From Bacteroidota bacterium (GTDB lineage Bacteria > Bacteroidota > Bacteroidia > J057 > JADKCL01): a DNA stretch of 64,000 nt. The translations under genes and the position numbers were made by a program. The notes under the pieces are model-generated. The model worked only from the letters and a program-made list of their open reading frames with translations, searched no databases and was not told where the DNA came from. Each line of letters starts with the position of its first letter. Position 1 is the stretch's first letter. The stretch is taken from assembly GCA_039024435.1 (NCBI GenBank), contig JBCCQH010000027.1, positions 1,963-65,962 on the forward strand, read 5' to 3'. Positions 25,385-47,994 of the stretch are shown here, in pieces.

Positions 25385-25505
25385 AATTGCGGGGCTTTGC
25401 CTATCTTACGCCCTCCATCTTCATCGTTCAAGTTTTCCGAATCGGCGGGCAGTACGCCCGGCGGTCTCTCGGGCAAACCCAACCGACAATCGATACCGAC
25501 ACCTG

Positions 25506-28532: not shown

Positions 28533-28597
28533 CCTTTGCCCGGATGATTCCAACCCGCAATTTTAAATGATCGCTTAATCAACAAAACCCAAGTAAA

Positions 28598-29353: not shown

Positions 29354-29359
29354 GGGGAC

Positions 29360-29887: not shown

Positions 29888-30079
29888 ACAGTAAAATCGT
29901 TTATCGGCGGTCCGAGTGGGGACATTGCGCGACACCATGCGGCAGTTTGAAAATAGCATTAATCCCGAAGCGTGTTTATTCATTGCGGAACAATTGGCCC
30001 GGCCTGCCTCAACAGGAATACCAAAAATAACAAATCTCCGCAAATGCCCCAACAAAAGGGGAAATTGACGGGAAAAACG

Positions 30080-30137
30080 GATCACGCTTTCTTGGGGTCG
30101 ATCTGGATCTTTTCCGAAGATTGATCTACATTAGATC
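30080..30137. promoter_or_regulatory. cluster of five GATC sites (four as GATCT) in the divergent intergenic region at the island's left edge
   Basis: GATC at 30080, 30100, 30106, 30123 and 30134, i.e. five within 58 bp. The cluster lies 39-96 nt upstream of the ATG at 30176. Confidence 0.35.
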
Positions 30138-30175
30138 TATTCATTGCCTTTTCATTTAACTAAGGATTGATTGAC

Positions 30176-33448: not shown

Positions 33449-33650
33449 CTTTTTATCTCAAAAAAGCAAAATTTTGTTTCTCTCTGAACCTCTATTGATC
33501 TCTTCCGGAATATCCGCAATTCTGAGATAAAACGTGCGGTTTCCCCCCAAATTCTTGTCCGTGAACTTCTGATAATCCCAAAAAAATCTGGTGGTCTGCC
33601 GGATCCTTTTCCCGCTACTTGCCGGCAGTTAAACCACAAAAAATACCATT

Positions 33651-34079
33651 ATGTCTGACACGTATTCCATTTCCAACCACCAGCCCCAGTTCAATGCGGA
33701 CTTCAGCGAGTTGGAGATCCACAACCTCACCACGGGAACCATCGAAGAAACCTACGATCTCACCCAATCCACCAAAGTATCGGTCACCTCGGGCAATTAT
33801 GTCGTCGACCAAAATACCTGTACCGGGTGCTTCTCCCAATCTTTTGACGCGGACGAACAGGAAACGGTCTCGTTCAGCGGGGCCCGCATGGCCGGCGTGA
33901 CCATCATGCGACTGGAAGGAACGCTCAAGCCCCATTTAGAGTACGACTTTGATCTGGATGCCTGTCCGGTGTACCTGAAGTACGACGGCGACAAGCTCAA
34001 GGTCGAGGCCTCCCAGGACAGCGGTGGAGCCGGGTTTGATCCTTGCTGCGTGACCATTCGCCAGCTCACTTCTGCCTGA
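33651..34079 (+). CDS. hypothetical 142-aa protein, first gene of the pAgo operon
   Basis: ATG start, with the stop 6 nt before the next ATG. Beta-rich composition with several Cys (CTGC, DACP, DPCC). No family recognised. Confidence 0.5.
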   Translation: MSDTYSISNHQPQFNADFSELEIHNLTTGTIEETYDLTQSTKVSVTSGNYVVDQNTCTGCFSQSFDADEQETVSFSGARMAGVTIMRLEGTLKPHLEYDFDLDACPVYLKYDGDKLKVEASQDSGGAGFDPCCVTIRQLTSA

Positions 34080-34085
34080 TCGCCG

Positions 34086-35201
34086 ATGCTTCCGGAAAAT
34101 CCATCCTTGTCGACGATCTCGGAAGTGGCGGTTCTCCAGGTCCGCACCCCGGAGCACCCGGAGGAATTCCGCTCGGAATTCCCGGGCCTGGAGGCCGTCT
34201 TCCCGAACCCGGTCCGGGTCTATTGGCTGTTTCCGGAGATGGCGTCCCGCCCCCGGATCGCCCCGTTTTCCTGGCGGCACCTGACCATCCATCCGGTTCC
34301 CTTTCCGCGGGTGGATGCTCGGGTCCGCAGCGGGAACTGGGAGTGGCTGCAGGACCCTTTCCTGGTCGTTCCGGGAGACCGGCCCCGCTTCGTCATTCCC
34401 GCCCAAGCGACGGTCCAGGATCAACTGATCGTGACCGCGCTGGCCCGTGCCGCGGGCGCTTACGTGCGCATGGCCGGGACCTACTTTGAAGGGGGAAATC
34501 TGTTCTGGATGGGCCAGCACATCCTCGCCGGTCGCGATACCCTGCTGCACAATCCCGCACTCCTGGCGGAAGGCGACCTTTTCTCCACCCAGCGGCGAAT
34601 CGAAGCGGATTTCCGGCCGGCCGAGATCCACTGGATCGGGGATCACCTGACGCAGACCCGATCTCCCTGGCAGCCTTGTGGTGAGGCGGACAGCTTCCAA
34701 CCCTTTTTTCACCTGGATCTGTACGTGATGCCCGCCGGGAGAAACTTGCAAGGAAATGCCCGCGTTGCCGTGGCGGACCTGCCGGCCGATCTCACCGACG
34801 CCGATGGCGTCGCGGCGCAGGCGCTGGTCACCCGGTTGCGGCAGCAATTGGCCCGCACCGAGGAGCAAGTCCGCGCCTCGGCTGGCCCCGAGACCGAAGT
34901 GATCCGGGTACCCATGGTGCTGCGTTGCCACGCGTCCCAGCCCCGGGTGTTCTCCCCTTGCAATGGACTCTACGAATCCACCCCGGCGGGCGACCGGATC
35001 TTGCTTCCGGATTATGTCACCCACGCTCCGGTCCGCTACTGGCGACCGCGACTGAAAGCCCAAAAACGGCAGATTGAAGCCCTCTGGGAAGCCCGCGGGG
35101 CCAGCGTCCACTGGGTCACGGGAAACTATTTCGAGGACTCCGACAAGTGCGGGGCCTTGCACTGCCGCATCAAAATCATTCAACGTGTATCCACTTCCTG
35201 A
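34086..35201 (+). CDS. guanidino-group-modifying (pentein fold) enzyme-like protein, agmatine/peptidyl-arginine-deiminase-like
   Basis: The motif order matches the agmatine deiminase/PAD_porph layout: NWEWLQDPFLVV (W..D.GP-like), YFEGGNLFWMGQHILAGRDTLL (EGG...G), FFHLDLYV (H.D), SPCNGLY (SY.N-like), and C-terminal GALHCRIKI (GG..HC). Confidence 0.55.
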   Translation: MLPENPSLSTISEVAVLQVRTPEHPEEFRSEFPGLEAVFPNPVRVYWLFPEMASRPRIAPFSWRHLTIHPVPFPRVDARVRSGNWEWLQDPFLVVPGDRPRFVIPAQATVQDQLIVTALARAAGAYVRMAGTYFEGGNLFWMGQHILAGRDTLLHNPALLAEGDLFSTQRRIEADFRPAEIHWIGDHLTQTRSPWQPCGEADSFQPFFHLDLYVMPAGRNLQGNARVAVADLPADLTDADGVAAQALVTRLRQQLARTEEQVRASAGPETEVIRVPMVLRCHASQPRVFSPCNGLYESTPAGDRILLPDYVTHAPVRYWRPRLKAQKRQIEALWEARGASVHWVTGNYFEDSDKCGALHCRIKIIQRVSTS

Positions 35202-35203
35202 TT

Positions 35204-37054
35204 ATGAATTTGCAACAAAACTGGTTTCCCATTGTCTTCCGGGGAGATGCAATTCCCCTTTGGCAGACGGGACGGGCCAATGACCACAATGCTCCCACTC
35301 ACCGCACACTTCCAAACTGGACGGAAAATGGCAAGCAGTACTTCTGGCCCCCCGCTGGGCAGACGCTTCCCGAGGGAGGAACCCTCCAAAAACTCTCTCC
35401 GCACCTCATTCCGCAACTGACGGCGGAGATCGTCCGCTGGGCCTTGCTCCAGCTTCCCCATCCCGGTTTGGAGCGCGACGAGGACGAGATCATTTTTCCG
35501 CATCAAGGGTCCACCCTGCGCCTGGCGGTGATTCCTCCCGCCCCGCACAACACAGAATTCTGCCTGAGCATCCGCCCGGAAGATCCGCCCCCCGCCGCCA
35601 AAGAAGCTTACCGCCAAGTCCACGATGCCTTCGCCGTACTGGCGCAATCCCCCTTTACCAATGGTGCCGGCACAGAATTCACCCTGGAATCGGAGCGGGT
35701 GGAAGTCGAGTACCCCTCTTTTGCCCGCCCCCGACTCTATTTCCAGCCCAGCGGCATCGGCAATACCAATGACAAGTGGAAAGGCATCCTGAACAAAGGG
35801 CCCTTCAGCAAAGCCCACTTCCGCCACCGGGAACTGCACTGTCTGGTGATCGCCGGGGCCCGGGACGAGGGCGTGACCAAGCGGGCCCTCGGTGAACTGG
35901 AACGGGGGCTCCCGAGTGTGGACCACACCTCCGAGTTCCAGAGTCCATTCCCGAAAGGCTGGGCCGAACTCTTCCGGTTCAAAAGCTGGACCCCGTATTA
36001 CCTTTGGCTCCGCGGCCCCGCCGAGTGGGAGAATCTGGAACAACAGGTGCAGGAAGCGGTCCAGGCGCAGTGCCGGGAAGGACGGGAAGGCTTTGATCTG
36101 GCCTGGATCATGCCGCCGCGGGCCCATCGCAATGCGCCCCAGCTCATTGCCGGTGCGACGGCTACCCTGCTCGAATTTGGCATTCCGGCTCAGGTCTGGG
36201 ACCTGGATCCCTTCCGGCCCGGAGCCCCGCCCGGGAGCGCCGGCCAACGGCTGCGCGAACTCGCCCTCAAGAGCTACGTCAAGGTCGGGGGGATCCCCTG
36301 GCTGCTGCCGAGTGACCGGTCCAGCGACCGCCTCGTGGTCATCGGGGTGGGCAGCACCGAGCTTACGGAGGGTGTCGCTGGATTCTGCACCATTTTTGAA
36401 CGGGACGGGACCTTCCGCCTGGGCAATGCTTCGGCCCAGCCGAGCTTCCGGGACTGGCTGCGGGACCTGAGTGGTTTCGTCCGGGCCCAGGTGCGAAAAC
36501 TCGCCGATCAGGACAACTGGCAAGCGGGGGATCGGGTCGAGCTGGTCTTTCACCTTCCGGGGCCCGAATACTTCGGGCAGGTGGGCGCATTGCGGGAACA
36601 GTTGACCGGGGTGACCCTGGCCCAGTACCAGGTCTCGATGAGTTTTCTTGGGATCGACTACGCCCACCGGGACCGCCTCTGGGACTTGGAACGCCGGGGA
36701 CGGGGCGCAGAAAGCCGGGCCGCCTACATTCCCAAAATCGGTCAGGCCAGCATCGGCGGAGAAGAAGCCTGGTTGCAGTTGCGCGGAATCGAGCACGAGC
36801 GGGCCGAGGATCCCCCCTTGCGGATCTTGCTCCATCCCGACTCGGAAAACCTGGACCTCACCGAATTCACCCACCAGATATTCCGCTTTGCCGCCTTGTC
36901 CTGGCGCACCTACGGCCTGGAAGATCTGCCCGCGACGCTGGCCTACGGCAATGCCCTCACCGACCTGCTTTACCGCATCCACCAAGCGGGGCGCAGTACC
37001 GAGGTCGCCCGCGCCCTCCACAACTTTCCCCACCTCAAAACCTGGTTCCTATGA
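35204..37054 (+). CDS. short prokaryotic Argonaute (MID-PIWI), predicted catalytically inactive
   Basis: PIWI blocks: LKSYVKVGGIPWLL (36281-36301 encodes KVGGIPW), VVIGVGS, VFHLPGPEYFGQ, YAHRDRLWD, LPATLAYGNALTDL. The DEDX positions read G, L and N. The ATG lies 2 nt after the upstream stop. Confidence 0.8.
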   Translation: MNLQQNWFPIVFRGDAIPLWQTGRANDHNAPTHRTLPNWTENGKQYFWPPAGQTLPEGGTLQKLSPHLIPQLTAEIVRWALLQLPHPGLERDEDEIIFPHQGSTLRLAVIPPAPHNTEFCLSIRPEDPPPAAKEAYRQVHDAFAVLAQSPFTNGAGTEFTLESERVEVEYPSFARPRLYFQPSGIGNTNDKWKGILNKGPFSKAHFRHRELHCLVIAGARDEGVTKRALGELERGLPSVDHTSEFQSPFPKGWAELFRFKSWTPYYLWLRGPAEWENLEQQVQEAVQAQCREGREGFDLAWIMPPRAHRNAPQLIAGATATLLEFGIPAQVWDLDPFRPGAPPGSAGQRLRELALKSYVKVGGIPWLLPSDRSSDRLVVIGVGSTELTEGVAGFCTIFERDGTFRLGNASAQPSFRDWLRDLSGFVRAQVRKLADQDNWQAGDRVELVFHLPGPEYFGQVGALREQLTGVTLAQYQVSMSFLGIDYAHRDRLWDLERRGRGAESRAAYIPKIGQASIGGEEAWLQLRGIEHERAEDPPLRILLHPDSENLDLTEFTHQIFRFAALSWRTYGLEDLPATLAYGNALTDLLYRIHQAGRSTEVARALHNFPHLKTWFL

Positions 37055-38061
37055 TTTTGATCCCCGATTTTTTCGCCCGGACCGCGGTATTCTTGGAAGG
37101 AACCCATCCGGTGCAGCAAGCATTTCTCCACCATTTGTTCCCGGAATCGGTGCCCTTTCCCCACGCCACTGCCCCCGGCGCCATCAAAGGCAACAATGCC
37201 GACTACCCCAAAGTGGCCCTGCTCGGTTTCTGGTCCCTCTTCGCGCCGGAGTTTGCCGCGCGCTTTCGGGTGGCCTTCTCGCGCTACCGCTTCCGCAAGC
37301 TCGAAAGTGAGCACTACATCCTCGAAGATCTGGCCGCCCTGATCGGGATCTCCCAAGGTTTGCGGAAACACGGTGGCCCGGAAGACCACAAGTGGTGGAT
37401 CCGGCAAGTGGAACTCTGGCAACTGGCCTTTCCGGAAATGGAGGAAGTGCGGCAGTTCATCCGCTACCTCACCCAGGGAGGACTCCCGCCGGCCGGCCGC
37501 ATTTCACCGACCTACCTCGTCTACCTCGTGGTTCAGGAGCAGGACTGGAATCCGCAGTTTGCCGAGGTTGTGAGGCGATTTTACCTGCGCACCCGGAAGT
37601 TGCCGATGCCCGGGCCGGATGATCACTTTGGGCAAACGATGCTCAACCACTACGGTCTGGATGCCTGTTTCCGGCGCTGTATCTGGGAAGAAGACAAGAT
37701 CCTCACCTTGCAGCAAGCCGCGGTGGCCGGGGTTCACCACCGGGTAGAGGCCCGGGCCGTACGCCGGGCCAAGCGCCTGGTCGCCGCCGCTTACCTCCTG
37801 GGCATCCCCGGAATCGCGCTCTGCAACATCGCCTTCTTCTCGAATCTGGACGCGTTTGCCGAGTGGCGGAACCTTTGGGATGTCGCCGAAGACACCTTGC
37901 TTTTCGCCGGAGGCCCCTTTTCCGCCGCCTTGCTGTTCGTAAATGTGCTTTTGCAACTGGCGGGCCGCCACCCCCTTTCCCTCAAGTACGCCGGTCTGAC
38001 CCGGAGCCTGGCCGCCCGACTCACCAAACGGCACAAGCACCGCCTGGGCCTCGCCGGATAA
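37051..38061 (+). CDS. pAgo-associated protein with C-terminal two-TM hairpin
   Basis: ATGA overlap with the pAgo stop. The ~240-aa N-terminal domain is soluble. TM1 is LVAAAYLLGIPGIALCNIAFF (37777-37839) and TM2 is TLLFAGGPFSAALLFVNVLLQLA (37894-37962). The tail RLTKRHKHRLGLAG is basic. Confidence 0.6.
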   Translation: MILIPDFFARTAVFLEGTHPVQQAFLHHLFPESVPFPHATAPGAIKGNNADYPKVALLGFWSLFAPEFAARFRVAFSRYRFRKLESEHYILEDLAALIGISQGLRKHGGPEDHKWWIRQVELWQLAFPEMEEVRQFIRYLTQGGLPPAGRISPTYLVYLVVQEQDWNPQFAEVVRRFYLRTRKLPMPGPDDHFGQTMLNHYGLDACFRRCIWEEDKILTLQQAAVAGVHHRVEARAVRRAKRLVAAAYLLGIPGIALCNIAFFSNLDAFAEWRNLWDVAEDTLLFAGGPFSAALLFVNVLLQLAGRHPLSLKYAGLTRSLAARLTKRHKHRLGLAG

Positions 38062-38175
38062 TCCGCCGGTTCCCCGTTGATCCACCGAATCCTTCCCGGT
38101 GACCGCCTCGGTCGCCCCCAATCCCCATGTCTTTTCACCTCCAAAATTCCGGGCACAGGCCCGGACCGGAAACCT

Positions 38176-39246
38176 ATGTCATTTACCGTTAAAACATTCA
38201 CTTTGAAGCCCTTGAGAGCCGAACAACGCGAACACTTGGTGCGTCCATTTATGCGCTGGGTCGGAGGAAAGCAACGATTGGTCGGACAGTTGTTGAATTA
38301 TCTCCCTCCGGAGGACACCTATTCCCGCTACTACGAATTGTTCCTCGGGGCTGGATCCTTGTTCCTGGCCCGGAACTTCCCCAATCCGGTCCTGAACGAC
38401 CTCAATTTCCACCTGATCAATACCTACCAGCAGGTGCGCTCCCGTCCGGAAGCGGTTCACCGTTTGATCACGGAGCACGCCCGCCAACTCACCCGGGACC
38501 ACCGCCGCAACTTCGGCGGAGATTGGGAAAACTACCGGGGCAAGCGGGGCCGAGGCTCCTACTACTACACGGTCCGGGATGCCTACAACGCCCACCTTGA
38601 ACTGCCGGACGATATTTTTGATCCCGAACGTCTGCGGCAGGCGGCGCGTTTCCTCTTCCTGATCCATTCCAATTACAACGGCCTCTTCCGCGTGAACCAG
38701 CGGGGCGCTTACAATGTCCCCTTCGGCAAAAAACTGACCCACGTGCCGGACCTGGAACAACTCAATCGGATCAGCGCCCGGCTCCAAAACGCCCGGCTCA
38801 CCAATCACAGCTTTGAAGAACTGGAACCGGAAATCGGGGCTGGCGCCTTTGTCTACCTGGATCCTCCGTACCCGGATTTGCAGCCCCAGGATCTTTTTCA
38901 CCAGACAAACCGGTCCCAGAAAGCTTCCTTTACCGCGTACAATGCCCCGCCTTTTGAAACTCCGGAACACCAACAACTCGCCGCTTTTGCCGACCGCATC
39001 CGCCGGCGTGGGGCCAAAGTCATGGTGTCTATCGTGGAGCCTTTTGGCGTCCACAAAGCGGATCCCCGTCGAACCATGTTGCGGGAGTGGTATCCCGAAG
39101 CCCACTGGTGCTACCACCGAACGAAGTTCAAGCGCACCCTCGGTCCCCGCAAGGATCCCCAATTGGTACACGAGCTCATTCTCACCTCCTACGAGACGAA
39201 AAAGTGCCGCCCCGGTCACAAACTCAAAAGAAACCGCCGAAAATGA
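38176..39246 (+). CDS. Dam-family (D12 class) N6-adenine DNA methyltransferase
   Basis: Contains RWVGGKQRL, ELFLGAGSLF, NDLNFHLINTY, FRVNQRGAYNVPFG, and YLDPPYP (DPPY at 38860-38871). Start chosen at the internal ATG at 38176. Confidence 0.85.
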   Translation: MSFTVKTFTLKPLRAEQREHLVRPFMRWVGGKQRLVGQLLNYLPPEDTYSRYYELFLGAGSLFLARNFPNPVLNDLNFHLINTYQQVRSRPEAVHRLITEHARQLTRDHRRNFGGDWENYRGKRGRGSYYYTVRDAYNAHLELPDDIFDPERLRQAARFLFLIHSNYNGLFRVNQRGAYNVPFGKKLTHVPDLEQLNRISARLQNARLTNHSFEELEPEIGAGAFVYLDPPYPDLQPQDLFHQTNRSQKASFTAYNAPPFETPEHQQLAAFADRIRRRGAKVMVSIVEPFGVHKADPRRTMLREWYPEAHWCYHRTKFKRTLGPRKDPQLVHELILTSYETKKCRPGHKLKRNRRK

Positions 39247-41774
39247 ACTACTGGAAATGGAACACCGCCCTCGGGGATTTCTTTTTCCGGAATTCCCGCA
39301 AAGGCCAGCGCATCCTGTTTTACCTGGACCGCAAACTCATCGACCGGATCGGACAGGAACAAGGTCTCCCCGGCTGGGAAGATTTCTGCGCCAGCGTCCG
39401 CCAGGGTCCGCTGGAAGCATCCTGGCCCCACTACCTGCCGGAACTCGTGCAAGTGTGGTCCGATGGTCCCGAGTTTCACTACCCCTTTTTCCTGAATGGG
39501 ATTGCGGCCCTCATCCTGGCCCACACCGAACGCCCGCATCCCGATATGGGCTATTATGAATCCCTGGCCCATTTCGGGAAGCACCACCTGCATTCCACTG
39601 CCGATGCCCGGTCTGTGGTCCCACCGCTGGTCAATGCCTTTGCCCACATCCGGGAGTGGTCGGAAGCCTGGCCGGAAGTCCCCGGAACCTTCATCGACGA
39701 ACCGATCCAGGAGTACCGCTACGTGGGCCGCATCCGCCACCACGCCCTGATCTCCCCGGCCGAACGCCGCAATCTCCACCTGATCTGGCGGGACCTCACC
39801 CTAGAACCGGGACAGGGTCCCCACCTCGAATGGCTGATCTATACGCTGGAGCAGCACCCCGAATCGGCGAGCTGGATTCCGGGAATGCTGACCTTGTTCG
39901 GGCACCGCAGTCCTGAGGTACGGAAGGTGGTCCACCACTGGCTGCTGGAAGAACTGCGCACTTGGGATGGCAGTGCCCCGCCGACGCCCCAGTTGTACGA
40001 GCCGCCTTTTGAGGAAGGATTTGCCCTGCGGATGTCTTGGAGTCGCCGGGTGGGGATGGGCCTGCGCTTGCACCACCCCGACTGGAGCGGAGAGGTAACC
40101 CTGCGCCGGAAAGAAGCCCAAATCACCCTGCAAATCGGGGCGGATGGCTGGTCCCGGAACTTTACCTTTCCCGGAGGTGGAATAAATTTTACCGCGGAGG
40201 CCCCGGAGATCCGGGTACAAATGATCCAGCCCGTCCCGCGGGAGCTGTCGGCGTCTGTGTTTTCCTACTACTACCCCGCCGATGCCCTGGGCACCCTGGG
40301 ATCGGATTACATCGGGCACGACCGGATGCTCCGGGAACGGCCGCTGCAGCACTGCTTTCCGGCGCGTGAGCTGGCGTCCTGGCGGCAGTGGGCAAAAGAA
40401 CACCGGGTAGAAAACTGGCGGGCAAAAGAAGCTCCGGCGGGATTTCCTCCCGGCTGGAAATTCTACGCTGCCGAGCAGATTCCCCCGCCGGAAACTTCTC
40501 CTGGCGCACACCTGCCCCGGGTTCGGCCCCCGGCTCCGCTGAGCAAAGTATTTCCGCTTTCGGCCGCGCACCGCACGCAACAGTGGCAGTATGCCGCGGA
40601 TGGTCGCCGCTTGTCGCCTCCGGAAAGTGGAATCGGCCATTTCTTCCTGGATGGAGTAGAGCACCGGTGCGTGGCAACTTGCGAATGGACCCTGGACCTC
40701 TCGGGCAAAGCGGATCCGCCCCCACCGGAAGCGGATCGGCTGGCCCCTCTGCTGGCGAAAAGGCAGGCGGTTATCCCCTTTCGGCAGTACTACGATCTAT
40801 TGCAAGCGATTGCGGCGGAGCGGGGCGAGTCCCTGGACACCGTCGAAGCGCGCTACTACCGGCGCCTGACGGCGGCTTTGGGGTATTTTTTCGAAGATTC
40901 CCCCCGGCAGCAATTGCAACTGGCCCCCCCGGCGTTTGCCCTGTTGCCGGACAATCACCACGCAATCCGGGCTTCGCTCACCGGGATCTGGACGGCGGAC
41001 TTGCGGAACATCGTGGTACAATGGTGCCAGGATCCGGCGCACGGACTTCAATTGGCGTGGGAGGAATCTACTGATCCCTACCTGCCCGCCGCCGGGTTCC
41101 TTACTTGTTTCCGCTTGGACTACCTGGTCGCCTTGCACGCCGAATTGGAGCGCCGCTTTCCGGGGGTGGTCGGTCGGTGGACCCCTTGTTCCTATTCCCA
41201 AGCCCTGATCGAACGGCTCACCGTGCCGCGCCACCGCGGCTGGTTCAGCGAAGCGGAGGGATTGCGGAAACAAGTGGGTTCACCGGAAGCCCATTTCCTT
41301 TCCCCGGAAGACTACCGCTTCATCCCCCAAACGGGCGCGCCCATCTTCCCGATGCTCACCCGCAGCTACCACGAATGGTACGGCTACCCGATTTATACCT
41401 GGTGGGAAAGTGAGCAACAAGGTCACGACTGCAACGGCAACTGGGCGGTTTGGCGGCTGCTCCACGCCCATGGGGTTCCGGTCCTGTTCTCGGATCACCG
41501 CTGGAGCGACCACCTGTTGCTTCCGGTCCACTTGCCGCTGCCGGCGCTGGTGCGGCGGGCCCTCACCATGGCTTCTGGACTTCCGGGGAGTCCGGAAACC
41601 CATCCGCTTCCCGGCGGGCCGGAGCTGACCTGGCAACGCTACCCCAACATTCGCTACCCGATTCGGCGCCACCTGCCGCGTTTGCTTCTGGGCGCCACCG
41701 GTGTTTCCGCCCCTGAGTCGTTTTTCCACCGTCTCCATCCCCAACCGCACAACCATGGACCAATTAATCAGTAA
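39243..41774 (+). CDS. hypothetical 843-aa protein (position-equivalent to Druantia DruH or DISARM DrmE; no motif recognised)
   Basis: ATGA overlap with the methyltransferase stop and a 20-nt overlap with the downstream helicase start. Composition is coding-like. No domain recognised by eye. Confidence 0.45.
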   Translation: MNYWKWNTALGDFFFRNSRKGQRILFYLDRKLIDRIGQEQGLPGWEDFCASVRQGPLEASWPHYLPELVQVWSDGPEFHYPFFLNGIAALILAHTERPHPDMGYYESLAHFGKHHLHSTADARSVVPPLVNAFAHIREWSEAWPEVPGTFIDEPIQEYRYVGRIRHHALISPAERRNLHLIWRDLTLEPGQGPHLEWLIYTLEQHPESASWIPGMLTLFGHRSPEVRKVVHHWLLEELRTWDGSAPPTPQLYEPPFEEGFALRMSWSRRVGMGLRLHHPDWSGEVTLRRKEAQITLQIGADGWSRNFTFPGGGINFTAEAPEIRVQMIQPVPRELSASVFSYYYPADALGTLGSDYIGHDRMLRERPLQHCFPARELASWRQWAKEHRVENWRAKEAPAGFPPGWKFYAAEQIPPPETSPGAHLPRVRPPAPLSKVFPLSAAHRTQQWQYAADGRRLSPPESGIGHFFLDGVEHRCVATCEWTLDLSGKADPPPPEADRLAPLLAKRQAVIPFRQYYDLLQAIAAERGESLDTVEARYYRRLTAALGYFFEDSPRQQLQLAPPAFALLPDNHHAIRASLTGIWTADLRNIVVQWCQDPAHGLQLAWEESTDPYLPAAGFLTCFRLDYLVALHAELERRFPGVVGRWTPCSYSQALIERLTVPRHRGWFSEAEGLRKQVGSPEAHFLSPEDYRFIPQTGAPIFPMLTRSYHEWYGYPIYTWWESEQQGHDCNGNWAVWRLLHAHGVPVLFSDHRWSDHLLLPVHLPLPALVRRALTMASGLPGSPETHPLPGGPELTWQRYPNIRYPIRRHLPRLLLGATGVSAPESFFHRLHPQPHNHGPINQ

Positions 41775-44700
41775 AGAACCGATTTCCGCTTTTGAAGCCA
41801 TCCGGGACAAATTCATCTTGTACCTGCAGACCGCTTACCGGACCCGCTTCCGGTCCCTCGAACAGGAAAAGGAAGCCCTGCTGAAGCAGGCGCCCAACCT
41901 GTTTCAGTGGCCCTATGTGGAATTACAGCCAGACTACGCTTCTTCGGGAAAAAAGATCCCTGAACTCAGCCTCGAAGATCTGCCCGCGCTGGGAGCGTTG
42001 CTGGACCGGTTCAAGCTTCTAGTGGGCGGCAATCTCTTTTCGAACAAATACGCCCTCTACACCCACCAGTACGAGATGCTGTGTACCGCCCTGAGCGGTC
42101 GCCACAGCCTGATCACCTCGGGCACGGGCTCCGGAAAAACCGAATCGTTTTTGCTGCCCCTGGTGGCCCAGTTGGTGAAGGAGTCGGGTCACTGGGGACC
42201 GATCAACCGCCACGAACTGGGGGACCGGTCCTGGTACGAGCAAGAAGGGGCAACGGCCCGGGCCCATCCCTACCGCGCCCACGAAACCCGTCCCGCCGCA
42301 GTCCGGGCCTTGGTGGTCTACCCGATGAATGCCTTGGTGGAAGACCAGCTCACCCGCCTGCGCAAGGCCCTGGACGGTCCCCGGGTGTGGGACATCTACG
42401 ACGATCCGGAAGGATTTGCCGGGAACCGCATCTACTTCGGACGCTACATCGGGCCGACGCCGGTCTCCGGAACCGAAGAGCCAGAAACCACCGGCGACTC
42501 TGGAGATGCTACCCGGCAGGTCAACCGCAAGTCAAAGTCATTTGCCAACCGCAGCCGCATCCAGGCGATGCGCAGCGATTACGAAAAGATCACGACTTTT
42601 CTCAGTCAGGAATTTATCCCCGAAACCCTGCGGGACGAGGACATCCAATTCACCGTGCCGGCTTTTCCCGAGTGCCGCCAGGGGGTGGAGCTTCCGGTCA
42701 GTGCAGAAATGCGCACCCGGTGGGACATGCAGGCCACGCCCCCCGATATCCTGATCACCAACTTTTCCATGTTGAGCATCATGCTGATGCGGGCGGTTGA
42801 AGCGCCGATCTGGTCCCAGACCCAGGCCTGGTTTCACGGGGAAGACCTCACGGACCGCGATGCGCTTTCCCGGGAAGTCGTCCTCCAGGACCGCATCTTC
42901 CACGTCATCATCGATGAGCTGCACTTGTACCGCAATTCCGAGGGCATGGAAGATGCGGCCCTGCTGCGGAGTCTGCTCCTGAGCCTCAACATGATCGATG
43001 CCGACGGCCAACTGCATCCCCGGGTCCGGATCCTCACCTCGAGTGCTTCCCTGGGCGACGGCCAAGAAACCCAAGACTTCCTCGCGAAGTTTTTTGGGGT
43101 ATTTGCCTCCGGAGAGGCGAAAACTCCGGCTTTTTCGGTCATCAACGGTGATTCGCGCCCATTTGACCGGGAGGTCCCCGCAACGATGCCCCACGCCGAA
43201 GAACTGGTGCGCCTGGCGGAACTGCCCGGATTTCCCGAGCCCGATCCCGGAGAGGTCGCGGATATTTTGCGGAAAATGGTCGCGTCGCCGGTGGATCACG
43301 CTGCTTCGGGTCCGGAATTGATTCGGATCTGGTACGCCGAACACCAACTGAAAGACCGCATCAAGGCGACCTTTCAACGGCATCCCCGACGGGAAGATGA
43401 GCCGGCGACCATTCCCCGGAGCGTAGAAGTGCTGGGTCAAAAGTGGTTTCCGAAGCTTGCTGATTTCGCAGCGATCAAGGCCCTGAAGGCATTTTTCTAC
43501 CTCCGGGGACGCCTGCACGACCGCGAATACCCCAGCCTGCGGTTCCACTACTTCTTCAAGTTCATCCAGGGACTTTGGGCGGAAGCCCAACCCAATCGCG
43601 GGACCAAGCCCGAACCGGGCCACCACCTCAAGGAGCAGAAGCCGGTCGGGCAACTCTCCTACACCCCGCGCCAACTGGCCCCGGGGAGCAACAACCGGAT
43701 GTTTGACTTTTTGCGCTGCGAAGTCTGCGGTACGGTATTCCTCGGCGGACAAAAGAAATACATCTCCCCGAACAACCACGCCGAGTGCCAGGTCACCATT
43801 TCCAGTCCCGATCTCGAAAGCCCCCTGGGCAATCTCCCCACGATATCCCGCCAAAACTACCTCGATTACGCAGTGTTTTGGCCATTTTCGGATGCCCTCG
43901 ACGATGAGGTCGATTCCCAAAAGCCCTACCTCAAGCGGGACATCCCCATGGACTGGAACCAGCGGATCCCCAACTCGGGCAAGCGCGACCGGGGCACCTG
44001 GGTAAAGGCCAGCCTCAATACCGAGCTGGGGATCCTAAGCGAGGGCACAGCAATCGGCGATGCGTACGCCAATGGCTACTGGTTCCAAGTGCGACGCATA
44101 AAGAATGGGGCGCTCGTCCACCAGCGGGATCCTATGAAAATAGCACTGCACGCTGCCTTGCCCAACGCCTGTCCCTGTTGCAAGCAGAATTGGGGCAATC
44201 GCCAGTTTGTGAAATCTCCCATCCGGTCTTTTCGCACGGGTTTTGGCAAGATGAATCAGGTTTTGCTCAAGGAGCTGGCCTACCAGCTCGACCACGATCC
44301 CGACCAGGGACACTTCCGCAAGCTGGTGGCCTTTTCCGACTCCCGGGAAGATGCAGCCCGCCTGGCGTTTGACATCGAAAACCAGCATTTTCTGAATGTG
44401 GTGGAGGAGTACATGATGGAAATCTTCCAGCACCACCGGAAGGAAGAACAGGTAGAAGAAGAGCAGTTGCGCGGCATCCGCAAGCGGCAAATCGAGATGC
44501 TGGACCGCCTGCAGCGGGAGGAGGATGGCCCGGAAATCAAGGAATGGGCGCAAGCAAATCCCGACGCCTACCGGGAGGTCGCACAACTCCACAATTGGAG
44601 CAAAAGTTTCCTCGAAGAAGAGCAGGCCCAAGCCCAAGCCCAACGGGAAAAGTGGCAGCGCAAGGTGGATGGGCCCATTGAAGAGGTGCGGGTGGTGCCG

Positions 44701-47700
44701 GCCTGGAAATTGCTGGGCAAAGCGGGCAATACCACCGAGATGGGGCTGCTGATCGTGCGCTTGCTCCAGAAGGGAATCAATCCCGCCGGGGCCGATTCCC
44801 ACGCCCAGTTCCACCAGGGATTTCCCTGGTATGAGTTCCTGAAAGTGGACCTCAGCAACGAACAGTTTGCCTGGAAAACCCCCGAGGAGATGGACCTGCG
44901 CACCGGGGAGGAGGACGTGATTCAGGAGTTTCAAAAAAAGGTCATCCGCAAACTGCGCGACTCGATCAGCGATGTGTTCTTCTCGAAGTTGGTGTACAGC
45001 CTGGAAGCGGCGGGGCAGGGCTATGCCTGCGTAAAGGCCGATCCGGATGAGCTGGAAACACATTTCCAAAGCTACGGCGACACGAAGGTGGCGGGCGAAT
45101 TGCTGTATCAGTTTCTCAATGCGACGATCCGGGTGCTGGGCAACAATTTCAAGTACGAGATGGCAAGTTCGCGCTACGCACCGAATGTCCTGCCTTTTGA
45201 TGCGCAAAACGATTGGGGCAAACAGGTGGAACGTTACCTGGCGCAGGCGGCGGAGGTGCTGCAAGTGGAAGATCCCCGGGTGCTGAAGCAGTTCTTTCTC
45301 GACCAGGCCCGGAAACAAAAAGTGCTCAAGGAATACCGCCCTTCTCGGGAAGGCTCCCAGGCGGGGGAAAGTTCGGGCTACTTGCTCTCACCGGATGACC
45401 TGCACCTGTACCTGGCCGAGCCACCGGATCCGGTGTGGCGTTGCGGCAAGTGCCAGCGCGATCACTTGCACCCATCGGCGGGGGTCTGTACGTTTTGTTT
45501 TTCGCCCTTGGCGGCGGAGCCCACTCCCGAACTCAGCAGCCGCAAGCTGGCGGTGCAGAATTACATTTCCCATCCCATCGTCCACCGGCGGGAGCCCATC
45601 CGAATCCACTGCGAAGAATTGAGTGGGCAAACCGACGATCCCACCGCCCGCCAGATCGAGTTCAAGGGGGTCTTTCCGGAGGAGAACGAGCAAAAGTACC
45701 GGGTGGCGCGGCAGTTCCGGGAGATCGACGTGCTCAGCGTGACCACCACCATGGAAGTCGGGGTGGACATCGGGTCGCTGCAGGCGGTGTACCAGGCAAA
45801 TATGCCGCCGACCCGCTACAACTACCAGCAGCGTGTGGGCCGCGGCGGGCGCAGTGGACAGGCGTTCAGTGTGGCCTTGACGCTGTGCCGGGGACGCAGC
45901 CACGACCAGTACTATTTTGAAAATGGCCTGCACCGCATCACCGGAGATCCCGCGCCGCCGCCCAAGTTGTCTTTTCGCTACGAAGTCATTCGCCGGAGCA
46001 TCACCAAGCACGTCCTGCGCCTGGCGTTTGCTCACCTGAAGACGGAGCACGAAGTCGCGCTGTCGTCCTCCCACAAGGACATGCACGGCGAGTTTGGCAG
46101 CCTGGGCGATTGGGTGGGAGGCACCAATTTCGTCGAGCAGTTGCGCGCCTGGTTGGGCGGTGACCGCTGTACCGGCGAAGTCCGCAAGATGTGGAAGGCG
46201 CTGGTCCCCCCGGATTCTGACCTCACGGACAAGGTGGGCGACTACCTGAACTGGCTCCGCTACGCGGAAAGCGGCTTGGTCGACCAGATCGATCAGGCCA
46301 TTCGCAAAGACCTGGATATTCAACCCCACGAAACCCTCCAGGACCTCCGACGGGAGAACCAGCCCAAGGGACAGCTTCGTTTGTCCGAGCGCCTGTCCGA
46401 GTATGGTTTCCTCCCCGCCTACGGCATGCCGAGCAACGTGCGGAGCTTTTTTCACGGGAGTAAAAAAGGGGAGATGCTATCGATTGATCGGGACCTCGAA
46501 CTGGCGATATTTGAGTTTTCGCCCGGTGCAGTGCGCACCAAGGACAAGGCCGAGTACCAGGTCGCGGGCCTCAGCTACCCGATGTACTTCGGCAAACAAC
46601 GGAAGCGAAACCAATACCCCTTTCTCCCCGCTGATCCCAATGATCGCTCGGCGATCATCGACCAGATCAATGCTTTTCCGGTGATGCGCTGCAAGGAATG
46701 CGGCAAAATCCACGGGCGCGCGGAAATCGAGGCCCAGGAATACGCCTGCGATTGTGGCCGCACCGATGAGGCAAGCCATTTTGACGACTTCACGATTGTC
46801 ATTCCCAAGGCGTTCCGGGCGACCTATCTCGGCACCCAAAATGGCAAAACGGTCAAGCAGGAAGATTCCCGGTTTGCCTCGGCGGGATCGGTGACCATTG
46901 CCCAACCGCACAACCTGGAGGAGGTGCCACTGCTGGAGCAAAATGTCAAGCTGGAATTTTCCGACAGCCACCGGGAGCACCCCAGTTTTGTCTGGAAACT
47001 CAACACCAATGGCGGCAACTACTTCCGGGGCCACCTGTACGATGACGGTGAACTGGTCAATCAGTGGTTCCCGGAAAATATGCAACCCAGATCGGCCCAA
47101 CTGAGCAAAGAAAAAGCCCCGGAAAACATCGCTTTGGGAATGAAGAAGGTGACCGATTTGTTGTTCATTTCGCCGCGGGAGATTCCCGCGGGACTCAAGT
47201 TGCAGCCTCCCGGCAAAACCGAGGATCCGCAAGTCATTGCCCTCAATACGGCCCGGCAGGCGGCGGTCCTCTCCGGAGCGTACATCCTGCAGAAGGTGTT
47301 TGCCGAGCGGATGGACATTGCCCCGGAGGAGATCGAGATTCCCCAATTGGATTTTGACGGCGCGCATCCCCGGATTGTGCTGGCGGACAAGCTCGCCAAT
47401 GGGGCCGGCTTCGTCGCCGAGCTCAAGGACAACTTTGGGCGGATCCTCACCGCGGCGATCGATGCCGGGCCGGGGACTTTTCTCAGTCATGCATTGGCGC
47501 ACGCCACGGGGCCCGATGCATGTGTTTCGAGTTGTCCGCAGTGCTTGCAGACCTACCTCAACCGGCAGGTCCACCACTTGCTGGACTGGCGGCTGGGGAT
47601 TTCTTATCTGCGCTTGCTGGCCCAAGGCGAGAAATTTGATGCCCACCTGGGGTTTGCTTCGTGGGAGAACGAAGCGTATCCCGAAATCACCGACTATTTC

Positions 47701-47994
47701 CGCCTGGCGGATGAATTTGCCGAGCGCATCGTCAAGTGGACCCACGAAAGCTACGCCCGGGTGGAGCAAGCGGGCCTGCACCTGCCGGTGCTTCTCAGCA
47801 AGGGCCCAGGGTTGCCGCGGGCCATCTTGTTGGTGCATCCGTTTTGGGATTTGGACCGTCCGGGGGAGGTGCTTGAGGGGGCGATTCAGCTTGCGCTGGA
47901 CCACACGGAGAAGCGGGCGCACTTGCGGTTTTTGGACGTGTTCAATCTGGTGCGCCGCCCGGCTTGGGTCAAGCAGTTCCTGATCGATGATTGA
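41755..47994 (+). CDS. 2079-aa SF2 (DEAD/DEAH-like) helicase with C-terminal DUF1998-like zinc domain; DruE-like or fused DrmA-DrmB-like
   Basis: Motif I TSGTGSGKTE (42121-42141), motif II IIDELHLY (DELH at 42913-42924), SSASLG, motifs V/VI VTTTMEVGVDIG ... QQRVGRGGRSGQ. Several Cys4 ribbons are present (CEVCG, CPCC, CGKC..CTFC, CKECG..CDCG). The C-terminal CVSSCPQCLQTYLNRQVHHLLDW is DUF1998-like. Confidence 0.75.
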   Translation: MDQLISKEPISAFEAIRDKFILYLQTAYRTRFRSLEQEKEALLKQAPNLFQWPYVELQPDYASSGKKIPELSLEDLPALGALLDRFKLLVGGNLFSNKYALYTHQYEMLCTALSGRHSLITSGTGSGKTESFLLPLVAQLVKESGHWGPINRHELGDRSWYEQEGATARAHPYRAHETRPAAVRALVVYPMNALVEDQLTRLRKALDGPRVWDIYDDPEGFAGNRIYFGRYIGPTPVSGTEEPETTGDSGDATRQVNRKSKSFANRSRIQAMRSDYEKITTFLSQEFIPETLRDEDIQFTVPAFPECRQGVELPVSAEMRTRWDMQATPPDILITNFSMLSIMLMRAVEAPIWSQTQAWFHGEDLTDRDALSREVVLQDRIFHVIIDELHLYRNSEGMEDAALLRSLLLSLNMIDADGQLHPRVRILTSSASLGDGQETQDFLAKFFGVFASGEAKTPAFSVINGDSRPFDREVPATMPHAEELVRLAELPGFPEPDPGEVADILRKMVASPVDHAASGPELIRIWYAEHQLKDRIKATFQRHPRREDEPATIPRSVEVLGQKWFPKLADFAAIKALKAFFYLRGRLHDREYPSLRFHYFFKFIQGLWAEAQPNRGTKPEPGHHLKEQKPVGQLSYTPRQLAPGSNNRMFDFLRCEVCGTVFLGGQKKYISPNNHAECQVTISSPDLESPLGNLPTISRQNYLDYAVFWPFSDALDDEVDSQKPYLKRDIPMDWNQRIPNSGKRDRGTWVKASLNTELGILSEGTAIGDAYANGYWFQVRRIKNGALVHQRDPMKIALHAALPNACPCCKQNWGNRQFVKSPIRSFRTGFGKMNQVLLKELAYQLDHDPDQGHFRKLVAFSDSREDAARLAFDIENQHFLNVVEEYMMEIFQHHRKEEQVEEEQLRGIRKRQIEMLDRLQREEDGPEIKEWAQANPDAYREVAQLHNWSKSFLEEEQAQAQAQREKWQRKVDGPIEEVRVVPAWKLLGKAGNTTEMGLLIVRLLQKGINPAGADSHAQFHQGFPWYEFLKVDLSNEQFAWKTPEEMDLRTGEEDVIQEFQKKVIRKLRDSISDVFFSKLVYSLEAAGQGYACVKADPDELETHFQSYGDTKVAGELLYQFLNATIRVLGNNFKYEMASSRYAPNVLPFDAQNDWGKQVERYLAQAAEVLQVEDPRVLKQFFLDQARKQKVLKEYRPSREGSQAGESSGYLLSPDDLHLYLAEPPDPVWRCGKCQRDHLHPSAGVCTFCFSPLAAEPTPELSSRKLAVQNYISHPIVHRREPIRIHCEELSGQTDDPTARQIEFKGVFPEENEQKYRVARQFREIDVLSVTTTMEVGVDIGSLQAVYQANMPPTRYNYQQRVGRGGRSGQAFSVALTLCRGRSHDQYYFENGLHRITGDPAPPPKLSFRYEVIRRSITKHVLRLAFAHLKTEHEVALSSSHKDMHGEFGSLGDWVGGTNFVEQLRAWLGGDRCTGEVRKMWKALVPPDSDLTDKVGDYLNWLRYAESGLVDQIDQAIRKDLDIQPHETLQDLRRENQPKGQLRLSERLSEYGFLPAYGMPSNVRSFFHGSKKGEMLSIDRDLELAIFEFSPGAVRTKDKAEYQVAGLSYPMYFGKQRKRNQYPFLPADPNDRSAIIDQINAFPVMRCKECGKIHGRAEIEAQEYACDCGRTDEASHFDDFTIVIPKAFRATYLGTQNGKTVKQEDSRFASAGSVTIAQPHNLEEVPLLEQNVKLEFSDSHREHPSFVWKLNTNGGNYFRGHLYDDGELVNQWFPENMQPRSAQLSKEKAPENIALGMKKVTDLLFISPREIPAGLKLQPPGKTEDPQVIALNTARQAAVLSGAYILQKVFAERMDIAPEEIEIPQLDFDGAHPRIVLADKLANGAGFVAELKDNFGRILTAAIDAGPGTFLSHALAHATGPDACVSSCPQCLQTYLNRQVHHLLDWRLGISYLRLLAQGEKFDAHLGFASWENEAYPEITDYFRLADEFAERIVKWTHESYARVEQAGLHLPVLLSKGPGLPRAILLVHPFWDLDRPGEVLEGAIQLALDHTEKRAHLRFLDVFNLVRRPAWVKQFLIDD

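What the first reader, a model, noticed from the sequence alone, without database searches (positions are those of the whole stretch)
33651..47994. pAgo module and methylase/giant-helicase module form one co-directional 14.3-kb seven-gene train with no visible terminator between them
Seen: all seven genes are on the plus strand. The only non-overlapping junction of note is the 114 nt at 38062-38175. It contains a short GC hairpin (CCGGGC...GCCCGG) but no T-run.

Established: a pAgo-like protein can work with a helicase-nuclease partner (DdmE with DdmD in Vibrio), and defence systems cluster and sometimes cooperate.

Inference: two readings are possible. (a) Two adjacent systems share an island. 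(b) This is a composite system in which the dead pAgo supplies nucleic-acid-guided recognition and the helicase/methylase supplies processing and self-marking. Option (b) would be new.
Basis: inference. Interest (0 to 1): 0.78.

Follow-up and report, generated by a model that had tools for sequence, protein, structure and literature searches.

The report
Argonaute genes fused to Druantia operon
A catalytically dead Argonaute gene set and a Druantia-type giant-helicase/methylase gene set have stayed joined in the same order in every related locus I could inspect, so they look like one previously undescribed eight-gene bacterial immune system rather than chance neighbours.

Summary
Seven plus-strand genes run from 33651 to 47994. 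The only real spacer is 114 nt (38062-38175), and it holds a GC hairpin with no T-run.

The second half is a Druantia type II/IV-like module: a Dam-like methylase, a DruF-DruL-like protein and DruE. The first half is a compact long-B pAgo, a membrane protein carrying a pAgo-associated helical domain, a PAD/pentein-like protein and a small protein.

Ten lineages had context I could read. All ten carry the same eight genes in the same order. The eighth is a divergent RusR-like regulator gene at 31943-33448. pAgo identity falls to 22-26% between the deepest lineages, and the flanking genes differ. The eight genes diverge in step (r = 0.91-0.98).

Outgroups lack the linkage. The one ordinary Druantia IV locus examined has no pAgo. 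None of 80 canonical long-B pAgo loci has any of the partner genes.

The spacer hairpin recurs with different stem sequences, so it looks like a conserved intercistronic element rather than a terminator.

Best reading: one co-inherited composite system, apparently confined to Bacteroidota. Functional coupling is inferred, not shown. I found no report of it in the searched literature.

The parts
31943..33448 (-). B: RusR (BT2802)-like putative transcription regulator, transcribed divergently from the train
   Evidence: NCBIfam NF058569 matches end to end (1-497 of 501 aa against 1-499 of 502) at E=9.5e-27, but 94 bits is far below the curated 550. RusR is a candidate positive regulator in Bacteroides. 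An ortholog sits in the same position and orientation in all 10 lineages at 28-57% identity.
33449..33650 (+). Divergent control region between B and g1, with a conserved motif TTGAA..(G)ATAAT..TCTGG at about 33561-33591
   Evidence: The motif aligns in all 10 lineages about 60-90 nt upstream of the g1 ATG. A loose version of the pattern occurs only here within the train. Promoter or operator function is inferred.
33651..34079 (+). g1: 142-aa protein of unknown function with conserved cysteines
   Evidence: No Pfam, PADLOC or NCBIfam family. Orthologs are present in 10 of 10 lineages at 30-56% identity. Absent from 80 canonical long-B pAgo loci.
34086..35201 (+). g2: 371-aa putative pentein-fold (PAD/agmatine-deiminase-like) enzyme
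   Evidence: Motifs WxQD, FEGGN, HxD and GALHC are invariant in 10 lineages. The weak PDB profile hits are peptidyl-arginine/agmatine deiminases (1xkn E=0.042; 6b2w; 6b10). Pfam PAD_porph hits 3 of 10 members, best E=0.019. The single-sequence AF2 model failed at pLDDT 34.
35204..37054 (+). g3: compact long-B prokaryotic Argonaute, catalytically inactive
   Evidence: PADLOC pAgo_II E=9e-65. PDB profile hits are EcAgo at 6e-42 and RsAgo at 1e-40. The AF2 model has pLDDT 91. Foldseek's best match is RsAgo at TM 0.79-0.80 over the whole chain. The position of the first catalytic Asp is an invariant Gly (IGVGS).
37051..38061 (+). g4: pAgo-associated helical domain fused to two C-terminal transmembrane helices; putative membrane effector
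   Evidence: PADLOC Aga_Helical-REase (Class II pAgo partner) matches the N-terminal part in 10 of 10 orthologs, best E=7.6e-11. Hydropathy gives TM segments at 243-261 and 283-301; 8 of 10 orthologs have two segments and all have at least one. The start overlaps the pAgo stop by 4 nt.
38062..38175 (+). Intercistronic spacer with hairpin 1 (38098-38116), hairpin 2 (38149-38164) and an AGGAAAyCT-like stretch before the MTase ATG
   Evidence: The 3' 55 nt are nearly identical in the 5 closest lineages, with one compensatory C-G to U-A change. A hairpin of at least 5 bp ending 8-11 nt before the MTase ATG occurs in 8 of 10 lineages, with unrelated stem sequences in the deeper ones. The background rate is 8.6%, and 0-1 of 10 at other gene starts. 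No T-run and no terminator-scan site. No Rfam family.
38176..39246 (+). g5: Dam-family D12 N6-adenine DNA methyltransferase
   Evidence: Pfam MethyltransfD12 E=1.9e-39. TIGR00571 dam E=3.3e-53. PADLOC MTase_II E=5e-59. Orthologs at this position in 10 of 10 lineages at 39-68% identity.
39243..41774 (+). g6: DruF-like N-terminal domain plus a DruL-like C-terminal region in one 843-aa protein
   Evidence: PADLOC DruF4 E=2.7e-20 and DruF2 E=9.8e-17 on residues 1-245; DruL4 E=4.6e-9 on residues 709-780. The same pattern holds in deep orthologs. Long DruF2 profiles themselves contain a DruL-like C-terminus.
41755..47994 (+). g7: DruE, the Druantia signature YprA-family giant helicase (2079 aa)
   Evidence: PADLOC DruE2 scores 1404 bits and DruE4 1233 bits, both end to end. 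Pfam gives DEAD, Helicase_C and MZB/DUF1998. The closest solved relative is 9wae at E=4e-175. It belongs to a distinct DruE subclade (at least 37% identity, 2043-2097 aa), set apart from ordinary DruE by a drop from 1325 to 963 bits.

Best explanation
The seven-gene train plus the divergent gene B is one co-inherited, probably co-regulated, eight-gene defence locus of Bacteroidota. It amounts to a Druantia-type system whose accessory set includes a long-B Argonaute module.

Shown:
- A specific pAgo subfamily (about 580-617 aa) and a specific DruE subclade (about 2043-2097 aa) occur together in all 10 lineages with readable context.
- The order is always B(-), g1, g2, pAgo, g4, Dam-like MTase, DruF/L, DruE.
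- All eight genes diverge in step.

Inferred:
1. The RusR-like protein B acts on the conserved control region upstream of g1 and drives transcription of the whole train.
2. The hairpins in the g4-MTase spacer are not terminators. They are intercistronic RNA elements that set the relative stability or translation of the two halves.
3. The MTase marks host DNA with m6A.
4. DruF/L-DruE loads on invader DNA and unwinds it, by analogy with type III DruE.
5. The dead pAgo, probably carrying small RNA guides like RsAgo, reads the exposed single strands.
6. Target recognition then recruits the helicase further, as in DdmDE, and/or switches on the membrane protein g4 and the PAD-like enzyme g2 as an abortive-infection backstop.
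For: - Linkage. The 4 pAgo homologs from the first search all sit in the same block. The next DruE tiers, at 43-45% and 37-39% identity, carry the same eight genes in 5 of 5 informative look-ups.
- Intact genes. All eight genes were translated in the ten lineages by a script set to report any internal stop, and it reported none.
- Co-divergence. Pairwise identities correlate at r=0.91-0.98 between any two of the eight genes, with the same sister pairs.
- Depth. The deepest linked pAgos are only 22-26% identical.
- Flanks. The flanks share nothing beyond DUF6119 in the closest clade.
- Outgroups. The DruE at 35% identity lies in a classic Druantia IV locus (DruF4 1e-222, DruL4 4e-93) with no pAgo and no D12 MTase. 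Across 80 canonical long-B pAgo loci (1.06 Mb), there are 0 homologs of B, g1, g2, g4, g5 or g6 and no DruE.
- Operon features. Genes overlap by 4 nt within each half. One conserved upstream motif is present in 10 of 10 lineages. No terminator-scan site lies in the spacer.
- Spacer hairpin. It is conserved in position with different stem sequences: 8 of 10 lineages against an 8.6% background.
- g4 is a true pAgo partner: the Aga helical domain matches in 10 of 10 orthologs.
- Background for the analogy. Type III DruE unwinds and degrades forked or 3'-overhang DNA. Ref: PMC10620215 suggests ssDNA targets may limit long-B pAgo activation.
Against: - Each half resembles a system that is self-sufficient elsewhere: long-B pAgo with a TM effector (BPAM, PMC10620215), and Druantia II/IV.
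- A spacer of 55-203 nt separates the halves in every lineage. It holds a folded hairpin in nine of them. It could hide an internal promoter; in the deepest lineages it is about 200 nt long.
- No large DruE insertion specific to the pAgo-linked subclade was found that could serve as a docking domain.
- All lineages probably descend from one fusion event within one phylum, so the 10 of 10 measures retention, not 10 independent origins.
- Only about half of the roughly 19 DruE clusters and roughly 17 pAgo clusters of these subfamilies could be checked for context.
- One extra pAgo contig (P0131) ends before the Druantia position.
- There are no expression, interaction or phenotype data.
Confidence: 0.6

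Rival explanations
1. Two mechanistically autonomous systems are kept adjacent by selection for synergy or joint transfer, without physical or signalling coupling. One is a BPAM-like long-B pAgo system (g1-g4). The other is a Druantia II/IV-like system with its own methylase (g5-g7). This would resemble the conserved Zorya II-Druantia III-ARMADA II array of E. coli.
For: - Each half has the parts of a known complete system (PMC10620215; PADLOC paper).
- A conserved structured spacer sits exactly at the module boundary.
- Conserved co-directional arrays of separate systems with phage-specific synergy are documented (PMC12458937).
Against: - The E. coli array is conserved within a species-level group. 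Here the order is strict, nothing is inserted, and all genes stay intact while pAgo identity decays to 22-26% and the flanks turn over.
- Neither subfamily was seen alone.
- There is a single deeply conserved control region, and the regulator gene sits at the head only.
Confidence: 0.3
2. The adjacency is accidental: two unrelated systems landed side by side in a defence island in this genome.
For: Defence systems do cluster. A third candidate defence gene (PDC-S14) abuts the train, and a DUF6119 gene lies upstream.
Against: The same eight-gene order is found in 10 of 10 lineages with different flanks, the genes co-diverge at r>0.9, and the linkage is absent from outgroups on both sides.
Confidence: 0.02
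3. The locus is not primarily anti-phage or anti-plasmid immunity. Instead it is a regulated DNA-transaction or epigenetic system under a RusR-like metabolite-responsive regulator, for example control of natural transformation, of mobile elements, or of methylation state.
For: - B resembles a nutrient-responsive activator.
- The MTase is Dam-like with no recognisable cognate endonuclease.
- g1 and g2 have no defence annotation.
Against: Every recognisable core part belongs to families known from defence (pAgo_II, the Aga helical domain, DruF, DruL, DruE). The distribution is patchy, and candidate defence genes lie nearby.
Confidence: 0.06

Closest known systems
Druantia type II (DruM-DruF-DruG-DruE) and type IV (DruF-DruL-DruE; PADLOC, PMC8565338)
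   Same: - End-to-end DruE; the best profile is DruE2, then DruE4.
- A DruF-like N-terminal domain and a DruL-like C-terminal region.
- A methylase immediately upstream, as in type II.
- Co-directional, overlapping genes.
   Different: - There is no DruG.
- DruF-like and DruL-like parts are in one protein of 843-962 aa, of which only about 250 aa plus about 70-100 aa are recognisable.
- The methylase is a Dam-type D12 enzyme that hits no DruM profile.
- DruE forms a separate subclade (a drop from 1325 to 963 bits).
- Above all, four extra genes including a pAgo, plus a regulator, are invariably attached.
Long-B pAgo systems BPAM/BPAN (Song et al. 2023, PMC10620215; EcBPAN, PMC13535254) and RsAgo
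   Same: - Inactive long-B type pAgo; RsAgo and EcAgo are the best matches by fold and profile.
- The downstream overlapping gene encodes a partner with the Aga helical domain.
- That partner has C-terminal TM helices, like bAgaM.
   Different: - The pAgo is about 140-170 aa shorter than canonical long-B pAgos.
- Two extra upstream genes (g1 and the PAD-like g2) are found in none of 80 canonical long-B loci.
- The module is never seen without Druantia genes.
- Homology of g4 to bAgaM itself was not tested.
DdmDE (Vibrio cholerae): pAgo-like DdmE plus helicase-nuclease DdmD
   Same: The concept is the same: a catalytically inactive Argonaute-like protein is encoded with a large SF2 helicase.
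   Different: - There is no detectable homology. DdmE is absent from the PDB profile hits and from the top 50 structural matches.
- DruE is a YprA-family helicase, not DdmD.
- This locus has eight genes and includes a methylase, a membrane protein and a regulator.
Conserved Zorya II-Druantia III-ARMADA II array (PMC12458937; PMC13463889)
   Same: A Druantia system held in a fixed co-directional arrangement with another defence system, with synergy demonstrated in that case.
   Different: That array is conserved among E. coli strains and sits on recognisable mobile elements. Here the linkage survives to 22-26% protein identity. No tRNA, flanking direct repeat or viral contig was found.

Membership tests
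Druantia (any type) | DruE: a helicase of about 2000 aa from the YprA family, with DEAD, Helicase_C and DUF1998/MZB domains | tested here: met
   PADLOC DruE2 E=0 covers residues 7-2074 of 2079. Pfam finds DEAD, Helicase_C and MZB.
Druantia type IV | DruF present | tested here: inconclusive
   Only the N-terminal 245 aa of g6 match DruF4 or DruF2 (E=2.7e-20), covering positions 1-248 of a 678-position profile.
Druantia type IV | DruL encoded as a separate gene | tested here: not met
   There is no separate DruL gene. A DruL4-like stretch (E=4.6e-9) lies at residues 709-780 of g6. The true type IV outgroup L017 has separate DruF (693 aa) and DruL (336 aa).
Druantia type IV | No methylase (DruM) and no DruG in the system | tested here: not met
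   A D12 MTase sits directly upstream of g6, overlapping it by 4 nt, in 10 of 10 lineages. No DruG hit was found.
Druantia type II | DruM methylase | tested here: inconclusive
   A methylase occupies the equivalent position, but it matches generic Dam/type II MTase profiles. No DruM profile is among its 20 PADLOC hits.
Druantia type II | DruG present | tested here: not met
   No gene lies between g6 and DruE, and none of the seven proteins hits a DruG profile.
Long-B prokaryotic Argonaute | Bilobed long-pAgo fold related to RsAgo | tested here: met
   The AF2 model has pLDDT 91. Foldseek matches RsAgo at E=4e-38 and TM 0.79-0.80 over the whole query. Profile hits are EcAgo and RsAgo. The protein is about 140-170 aa shorter than typical members.
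Long-B prokaryotic Argonaute | Loss of the DEDX catalytic tetrad | tested here: met
   The strand that carries the first catalytic Asp reads IGVGS, with G381 and G383 invariant in 18 subfamily members. The strand that usually carries the RDG Asp reads FHLPG. Motif positions are assigned from general knowledge of PIWI domains.
BPAM (long-B pAgo with trans-membrane effector) | Adjacent gene encodes a trans-membrane partner | tested here: met
   g4 overlaps the pAgo stop codon. It has two predicted TM helices in 8 of 10 orthologs and at least one in all.
BPAM (long-B pAgo with trans-membrane effector) | Partner is homologous to bAgaM (og_100) | not tested
   No bAgaM sequence was available. g4 does match the PADLOC Aga_Helical-REase helical part in 10 of 10 orthologs. 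No g4 homolog was found in 80 canonical long-B loci by tblastn at 1e-4.
DdmDE | DdmE-type pAgo-like protein and DdmD-type helicase-nuclease | tested here: not met
   No DdmE chain appears among the PDB profile hits at E<=0.01 or among the top 50 Foldseek matches. The helicase is DruE of the YprA family.
Pentein / guanidino-group-modifying enzymes (g2) | Catalytic Cys-His plus acidic substrate-binding residues in a PAD/agmatine-deiminase-like fold | tested here: inconclusive
   WxQD, FEGGN, HxD and GALHC are invariant. The only weak PDB hits are agmatine/peptidyl-arginine deiminases at E=0.04-1.2. PAD_porph hits 3 of 10 members, best E=0.019. No usable structure model was obtained.
RusR / BT2802 family (gene B) | Score above the NCBIfam curated cut-off | tested here: not met
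   The alignment is full length at E=9.5e-27 but scores 94 bits against a cut-off of 550. B is a distant homolog, not a family member in the curated sense.
Type II restriction-modification | Methylase paired with a cognate restriction endonuclease | tested here: not met
   None of the eight proteins hits a restriction-endonuclease profile.

The most novel reading that the evidence does not exclude
A guide-loaded, catalytically dead Argonaute is an integral subunit of a Druantia helicase machine. That would make this the first Druantia type with nucleic-acid-guided (programmable) target selection, and a second, independent invention of the Argonaute-plus-helicase principle seen in DdmDE. It would carry a built-in m6A self-mark and a membrane/PAD-like suicide arm.
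Probability: 0.35. Interest if true: 0.9.

Novelty: new variant of a known kind. Interest (0 to 1): 0.8.

Why it matters
- How Druantia types I, II and IV recognise invaders is still open; only type III has been worked out in the papers read here. A Druantia clade that always carries an Argonaute suggests a concrete, testable answer for at least this clade.
- It also addresses how dead long-B pAgos gain access to single-stranded targets.
- If the halves are coupled, a helicase and an Argonaute have been joined twice independently (DdmDE and here). That would point to a general design rule.
- The locus also contributes candidate new parts: a PAD/pentein-like enzyme as a possible pAgo-linked effector, a RusR-type regulator on a defence operon, and a conserved intercistronic RNA hairpin.
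- If instead the halves are autonomous, this is an unusually ancient case of two defence systems locked together. That is useful for studying synergy.

Tried and rejected
- **g6 homolog search.** The word-index search with g6 found only itself and one ortholog, so it was not useful for context.
- **Genome scan with the pAgo alignment.** It found only one MAG already in hand, plus a spurious 27-aa hit.
- **Viral contigs.** None.
- **Broad pAgo alignment.** The 18-sequence alignment was too divergent to seed a metagenome scan. The narrower one returned only canonical long-B pAgos. I used these as an outgroup control, not as new members.
- **Structure of g2.** The single-sequence AF2 run failed at pLDDT 34.
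- **PDB profile searches.** Searches for g4, g6, B and DUF6119 gave nothing meaningful.
- **Rfam.** No family in the spacer. The one sub-threshold BjrC68 hit inside g4 on the minus strand is probably chance.
- **Promoter scan.** The sigma-70 scan is not informative for this host.
- **Upstream ATG in the spacer.** I considered whether the ATG at 38127 is an alternative MTase start or a uORF. It is out of frame, and it is not conserved in L001. Rejected.
- **DruE docking insertion.** I looked for an insertion specific to the pAgo-linked subclade. Only two small ones of 9 and 14 aa turned up.
- **Mobile-element signatures.** I looked for tRNA genes and flanking direct repeats. None were found.
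- **Organism names.** The cluster-member look-up gave none.
Full report
**1. The observation**

The ORF map and three database proteins identical to window products (P0001, P0006, P0008) fix seven plus-strand genes:
- g1 33651-34079
- g2 34086-35201
- g3 35204-37054
- g4 37051-38061
- g5 38176-39246
- g6 39243-41774
- g7 41755-47994

Within each half the genes touch or overlap:
- g1/g2: 6-nt spacer
- g2/g3: 2-nt spacer
- g3/g4: 4-nt overlap
- g5/g6: 4-nt overlap
- g6/g7: 20-nt overlap

The only real spacer is 38062-38175. It contains CCGGGC-acag-GCCCGG at 38149-38164 with no T-run. A second hairpin lies at 38098-38116. The terminator scan finds nothing in the spacer.

**2. What the genes are**

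- g7 is DruE, the signature helicase of Druantia. PADLOC DruE2 scores 1404 bits and DruE4 1233 bits, both end to end. Pfam gives DEAD, Helicase_C and MZB.
- g6 has a DruF-like N-terminus and a DruL-like C-terminal stretch.
- g5 is a Dam-family D12 methylase.
- The PADLOC paper defines type IV as DruE+DruF+DruL without DruM or DruG, and type II as having DruM and DruG. This module sits between the two: methylase present, DruG absent, DruF and DruL parts in one protein.
- g3 is a long-B type pAgo. PADLOC pAgo_II gives E=9e-65. The best PDB profile hits are EcAgo and RsAgo. An AF2 model at pLDDT 91 superposes on RsAgo at TM 0.79-0.80. It is about 140-170 aa shorter than canonical long-B pAgos. 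The position of the first catalytic Asp is an invariant Gly.
- g4 carries the helical domain of the PADLOC 'Aga_Helical-REase' pAgo partner in all ten orthologs. Two C-terminal TM helices replace the nuclease part. This resembles the BPAM arrangement of Song et al..
- g2 has invariant WxQD, FEGGN, HxD and GALHC motifs. Its only weak database matches are agmatine/peptidyl-arginine deiminases. I read it as a probable pentein-fold enzyme, but this is not proven, and the structure model failed.
- g1 has no match anywhere.

**3. The decisive comparison**

- The pAgo has only four detectable close relatives (45-50% identity). All four lie in the same block.
- A DruE search gives a graded series: 61-63%, 43-45% and 37-39% identity. 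It then drops sharply, from 1325 to 963 bits, to thousands of ordinary DruE at 33-35%.
- Look-ups in the 43-45% and 37-39% tiers returned the same genes in the same order in all five informative cases: B(-), g1, g2, pAgo, g4, D12 MTase, DruF/L, DruE.
- One contig was cut before the relevant region.
- tblastn confirms orthology of all eight genes in ten lineages.
- The one ordinary DruE examined (35% identity) sits in a textbook type IV locus with no pAgo and no D12 methylase.
- Conversely, 80 canonical long-B pAgo loci from metagenomes (1.06 Mb) contain no homolog of B, g1, g2, g4, g5 or g6 and no DruE.
- A full HMMER search shows that the compact pAgo subfamily is small, about a dozen 50%-identity clusters. 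That is similar to the number of DruE clusters in the linked subclade.
- One further pAgo contig shows B, g1, g2, pAgo and the start of g4 before it ends.

**4. Co-inheritance**

- Pairwise identity matrices for the eight genes correlate at r=0.91-0.98 and show the same sister pairs.
- The deepest linked pAgos share only 22-26% identity.
- Outside the block, only DUF6119 is shared, and only in the closest clade. Otherwise the flanks differ.
- No gene showed an internal stop in the translations, which were scripted to report any.
- This is one ancient joining event followed by strict retention. It is not ten independent events, and I treat it that way.

**5. Regulation**

- Gene B (31943-33448, minus strand) aligns end to end with the BT2802/RusR family, far below the curated cut-off. 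RusR is a candidate positive regulator in Bacteroides.
- The B-g1 intergenic region carries a motif conserved in all ten lineages.
- The g4-MTase spacer is 55-203 nt in all lineages once the MTase starts are corrected.
- In the five closest lineages its 3' half is almost invariant, with one compensatory change in the hairpin.
- In deeper lineages a hairpin recurs 8-11 nt before the MTase ATG with unrelated stem sequences. It is present in 8 of 10 lineages by strict criteria, against an 8.6% background and 0-1 of 10 at other gene starts. The five closest lineages are not independent in that count.
- I interpret this as a conserved intercistronic RNA element that tunes the downstream half. It is not a terminator. 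An internal promoter cannot be excluded.

**6. Host and mobility**

- T9SS sorting domains, hybrid two-component regulators and RusR point to Bacteroidota, both in the window and in related contigs. This is an inference.
- No tRNA, flanking repeat or viral contig was found.
- GC is somewhat higher in the block (about 0.57-0.66) than in its immediate flanks (0.52-0.61) or the window as a whole (0.57).

**7. Literature**

Searches combining Druantia, DruE, Argonaute and pAgo found no report of this linkage. That includes the YprA-family survey and a 566-locus DruE phylogeny. The library is incomplete, so this is absence of evidence only.

**8. Mechanism**

The linkage, the co-divergence and the gene identities are shown. 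Everything about how the parts act is inferred.
- RusR-like control of one promoter.
- m6A self-marking by the methylase.
- DruF/L-DruE unwinding invader DNA, by analogy with type III DruE.
- The dead pAgo reading the exposed strands with guides, like RsAgo.
- Output through helicase recruitment (DdmDE-like logic) and/or through the membrane protein g4 and the PAD-like g2.

The main rival is that the two halves are autonomous but locked together for synergy. The data do not exclude it.

**9. Verdict**

This is a real and apparently undescribed composite: a Druantia-type locus with an obligate Argonaute module. I rate it a new variant of known kinds.

Noticed in passing
window 30167-31828 (+): A DUF6119/TIGR04141 gene lies just upstream of gene B in the window and in the four other closest lineages (49-53% identity), but not in the deeper ones. 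It has a weak hit to a PADLOC 'pAgo_I' profile (E=2e-4, residues 399-493). It may be an add-on to the locus or a separate defence gene.
   Followed up: partly
window 47995 to about 48950 (-): A PDC-S14 candidate defence gene (DUF4357 C-terminus; PADLOC E=2.6e-72) converges on the DruE stop codon. Similar DUF4357 genes abut the block in L009 (upstream) and in L015/L016 (downstream).
   Followed up: partly
L011 16261-17112; L012 9145-10002; L014 16223-17005: Two related lineages carry a second D12 methylase directly after DruE. Another has a DpnI_C-domain protein there. If the locus methylase made GATC m6A, that protein would be awkward, which hints at a different target motif.
   Followed up: no
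window 38126-38139 and 38175-38188: The sequence around the MTase start (TATGTCATTTACC) is echoed 49 nt upstream (CATGTCTTTTCACC), on either side of hairpin 2. The echo is conserved in most close lineages, but its ATG is out of frame and is lost in L001. It could be a protein-binding repeat.
   Followed up: partly
window 33561-33591: The motif TTGAAC-TTCT-GATAAT-N-TCTGG is conserved in all ten lineages upstream of g1. It does not match the sigma-70, sigma-54 or classic Bacteroides -7/-33 consensus as I recall them.
   Followed up: partly
window 33936-35183 (-), 35180-37033 (-), 38179-39219 (-), and others: Long antisense ORFs of 346-617 aa shadow the real genes. I take them to be shadow ORFs of the high-GC coding sequence rather than genes; the plus-strand frames are the ones with family hits or conserved orthologs.
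   Followed up: partly
window 37688-37768 (-): A sub-threshold Rfam hit to BjrC68 sRNA (24.8 bits against a gathering score of 39) lies inside g4 on the opposite strand. It is probably chance.
   Followed up: no
window 25326-30085: Immediately upstream of the defence block lie a Y_Y_Y/Reg_prop histidine kinase, a LytTR response regulator and an LRR protein. None is conserved in related loci.
   Followed up: partly
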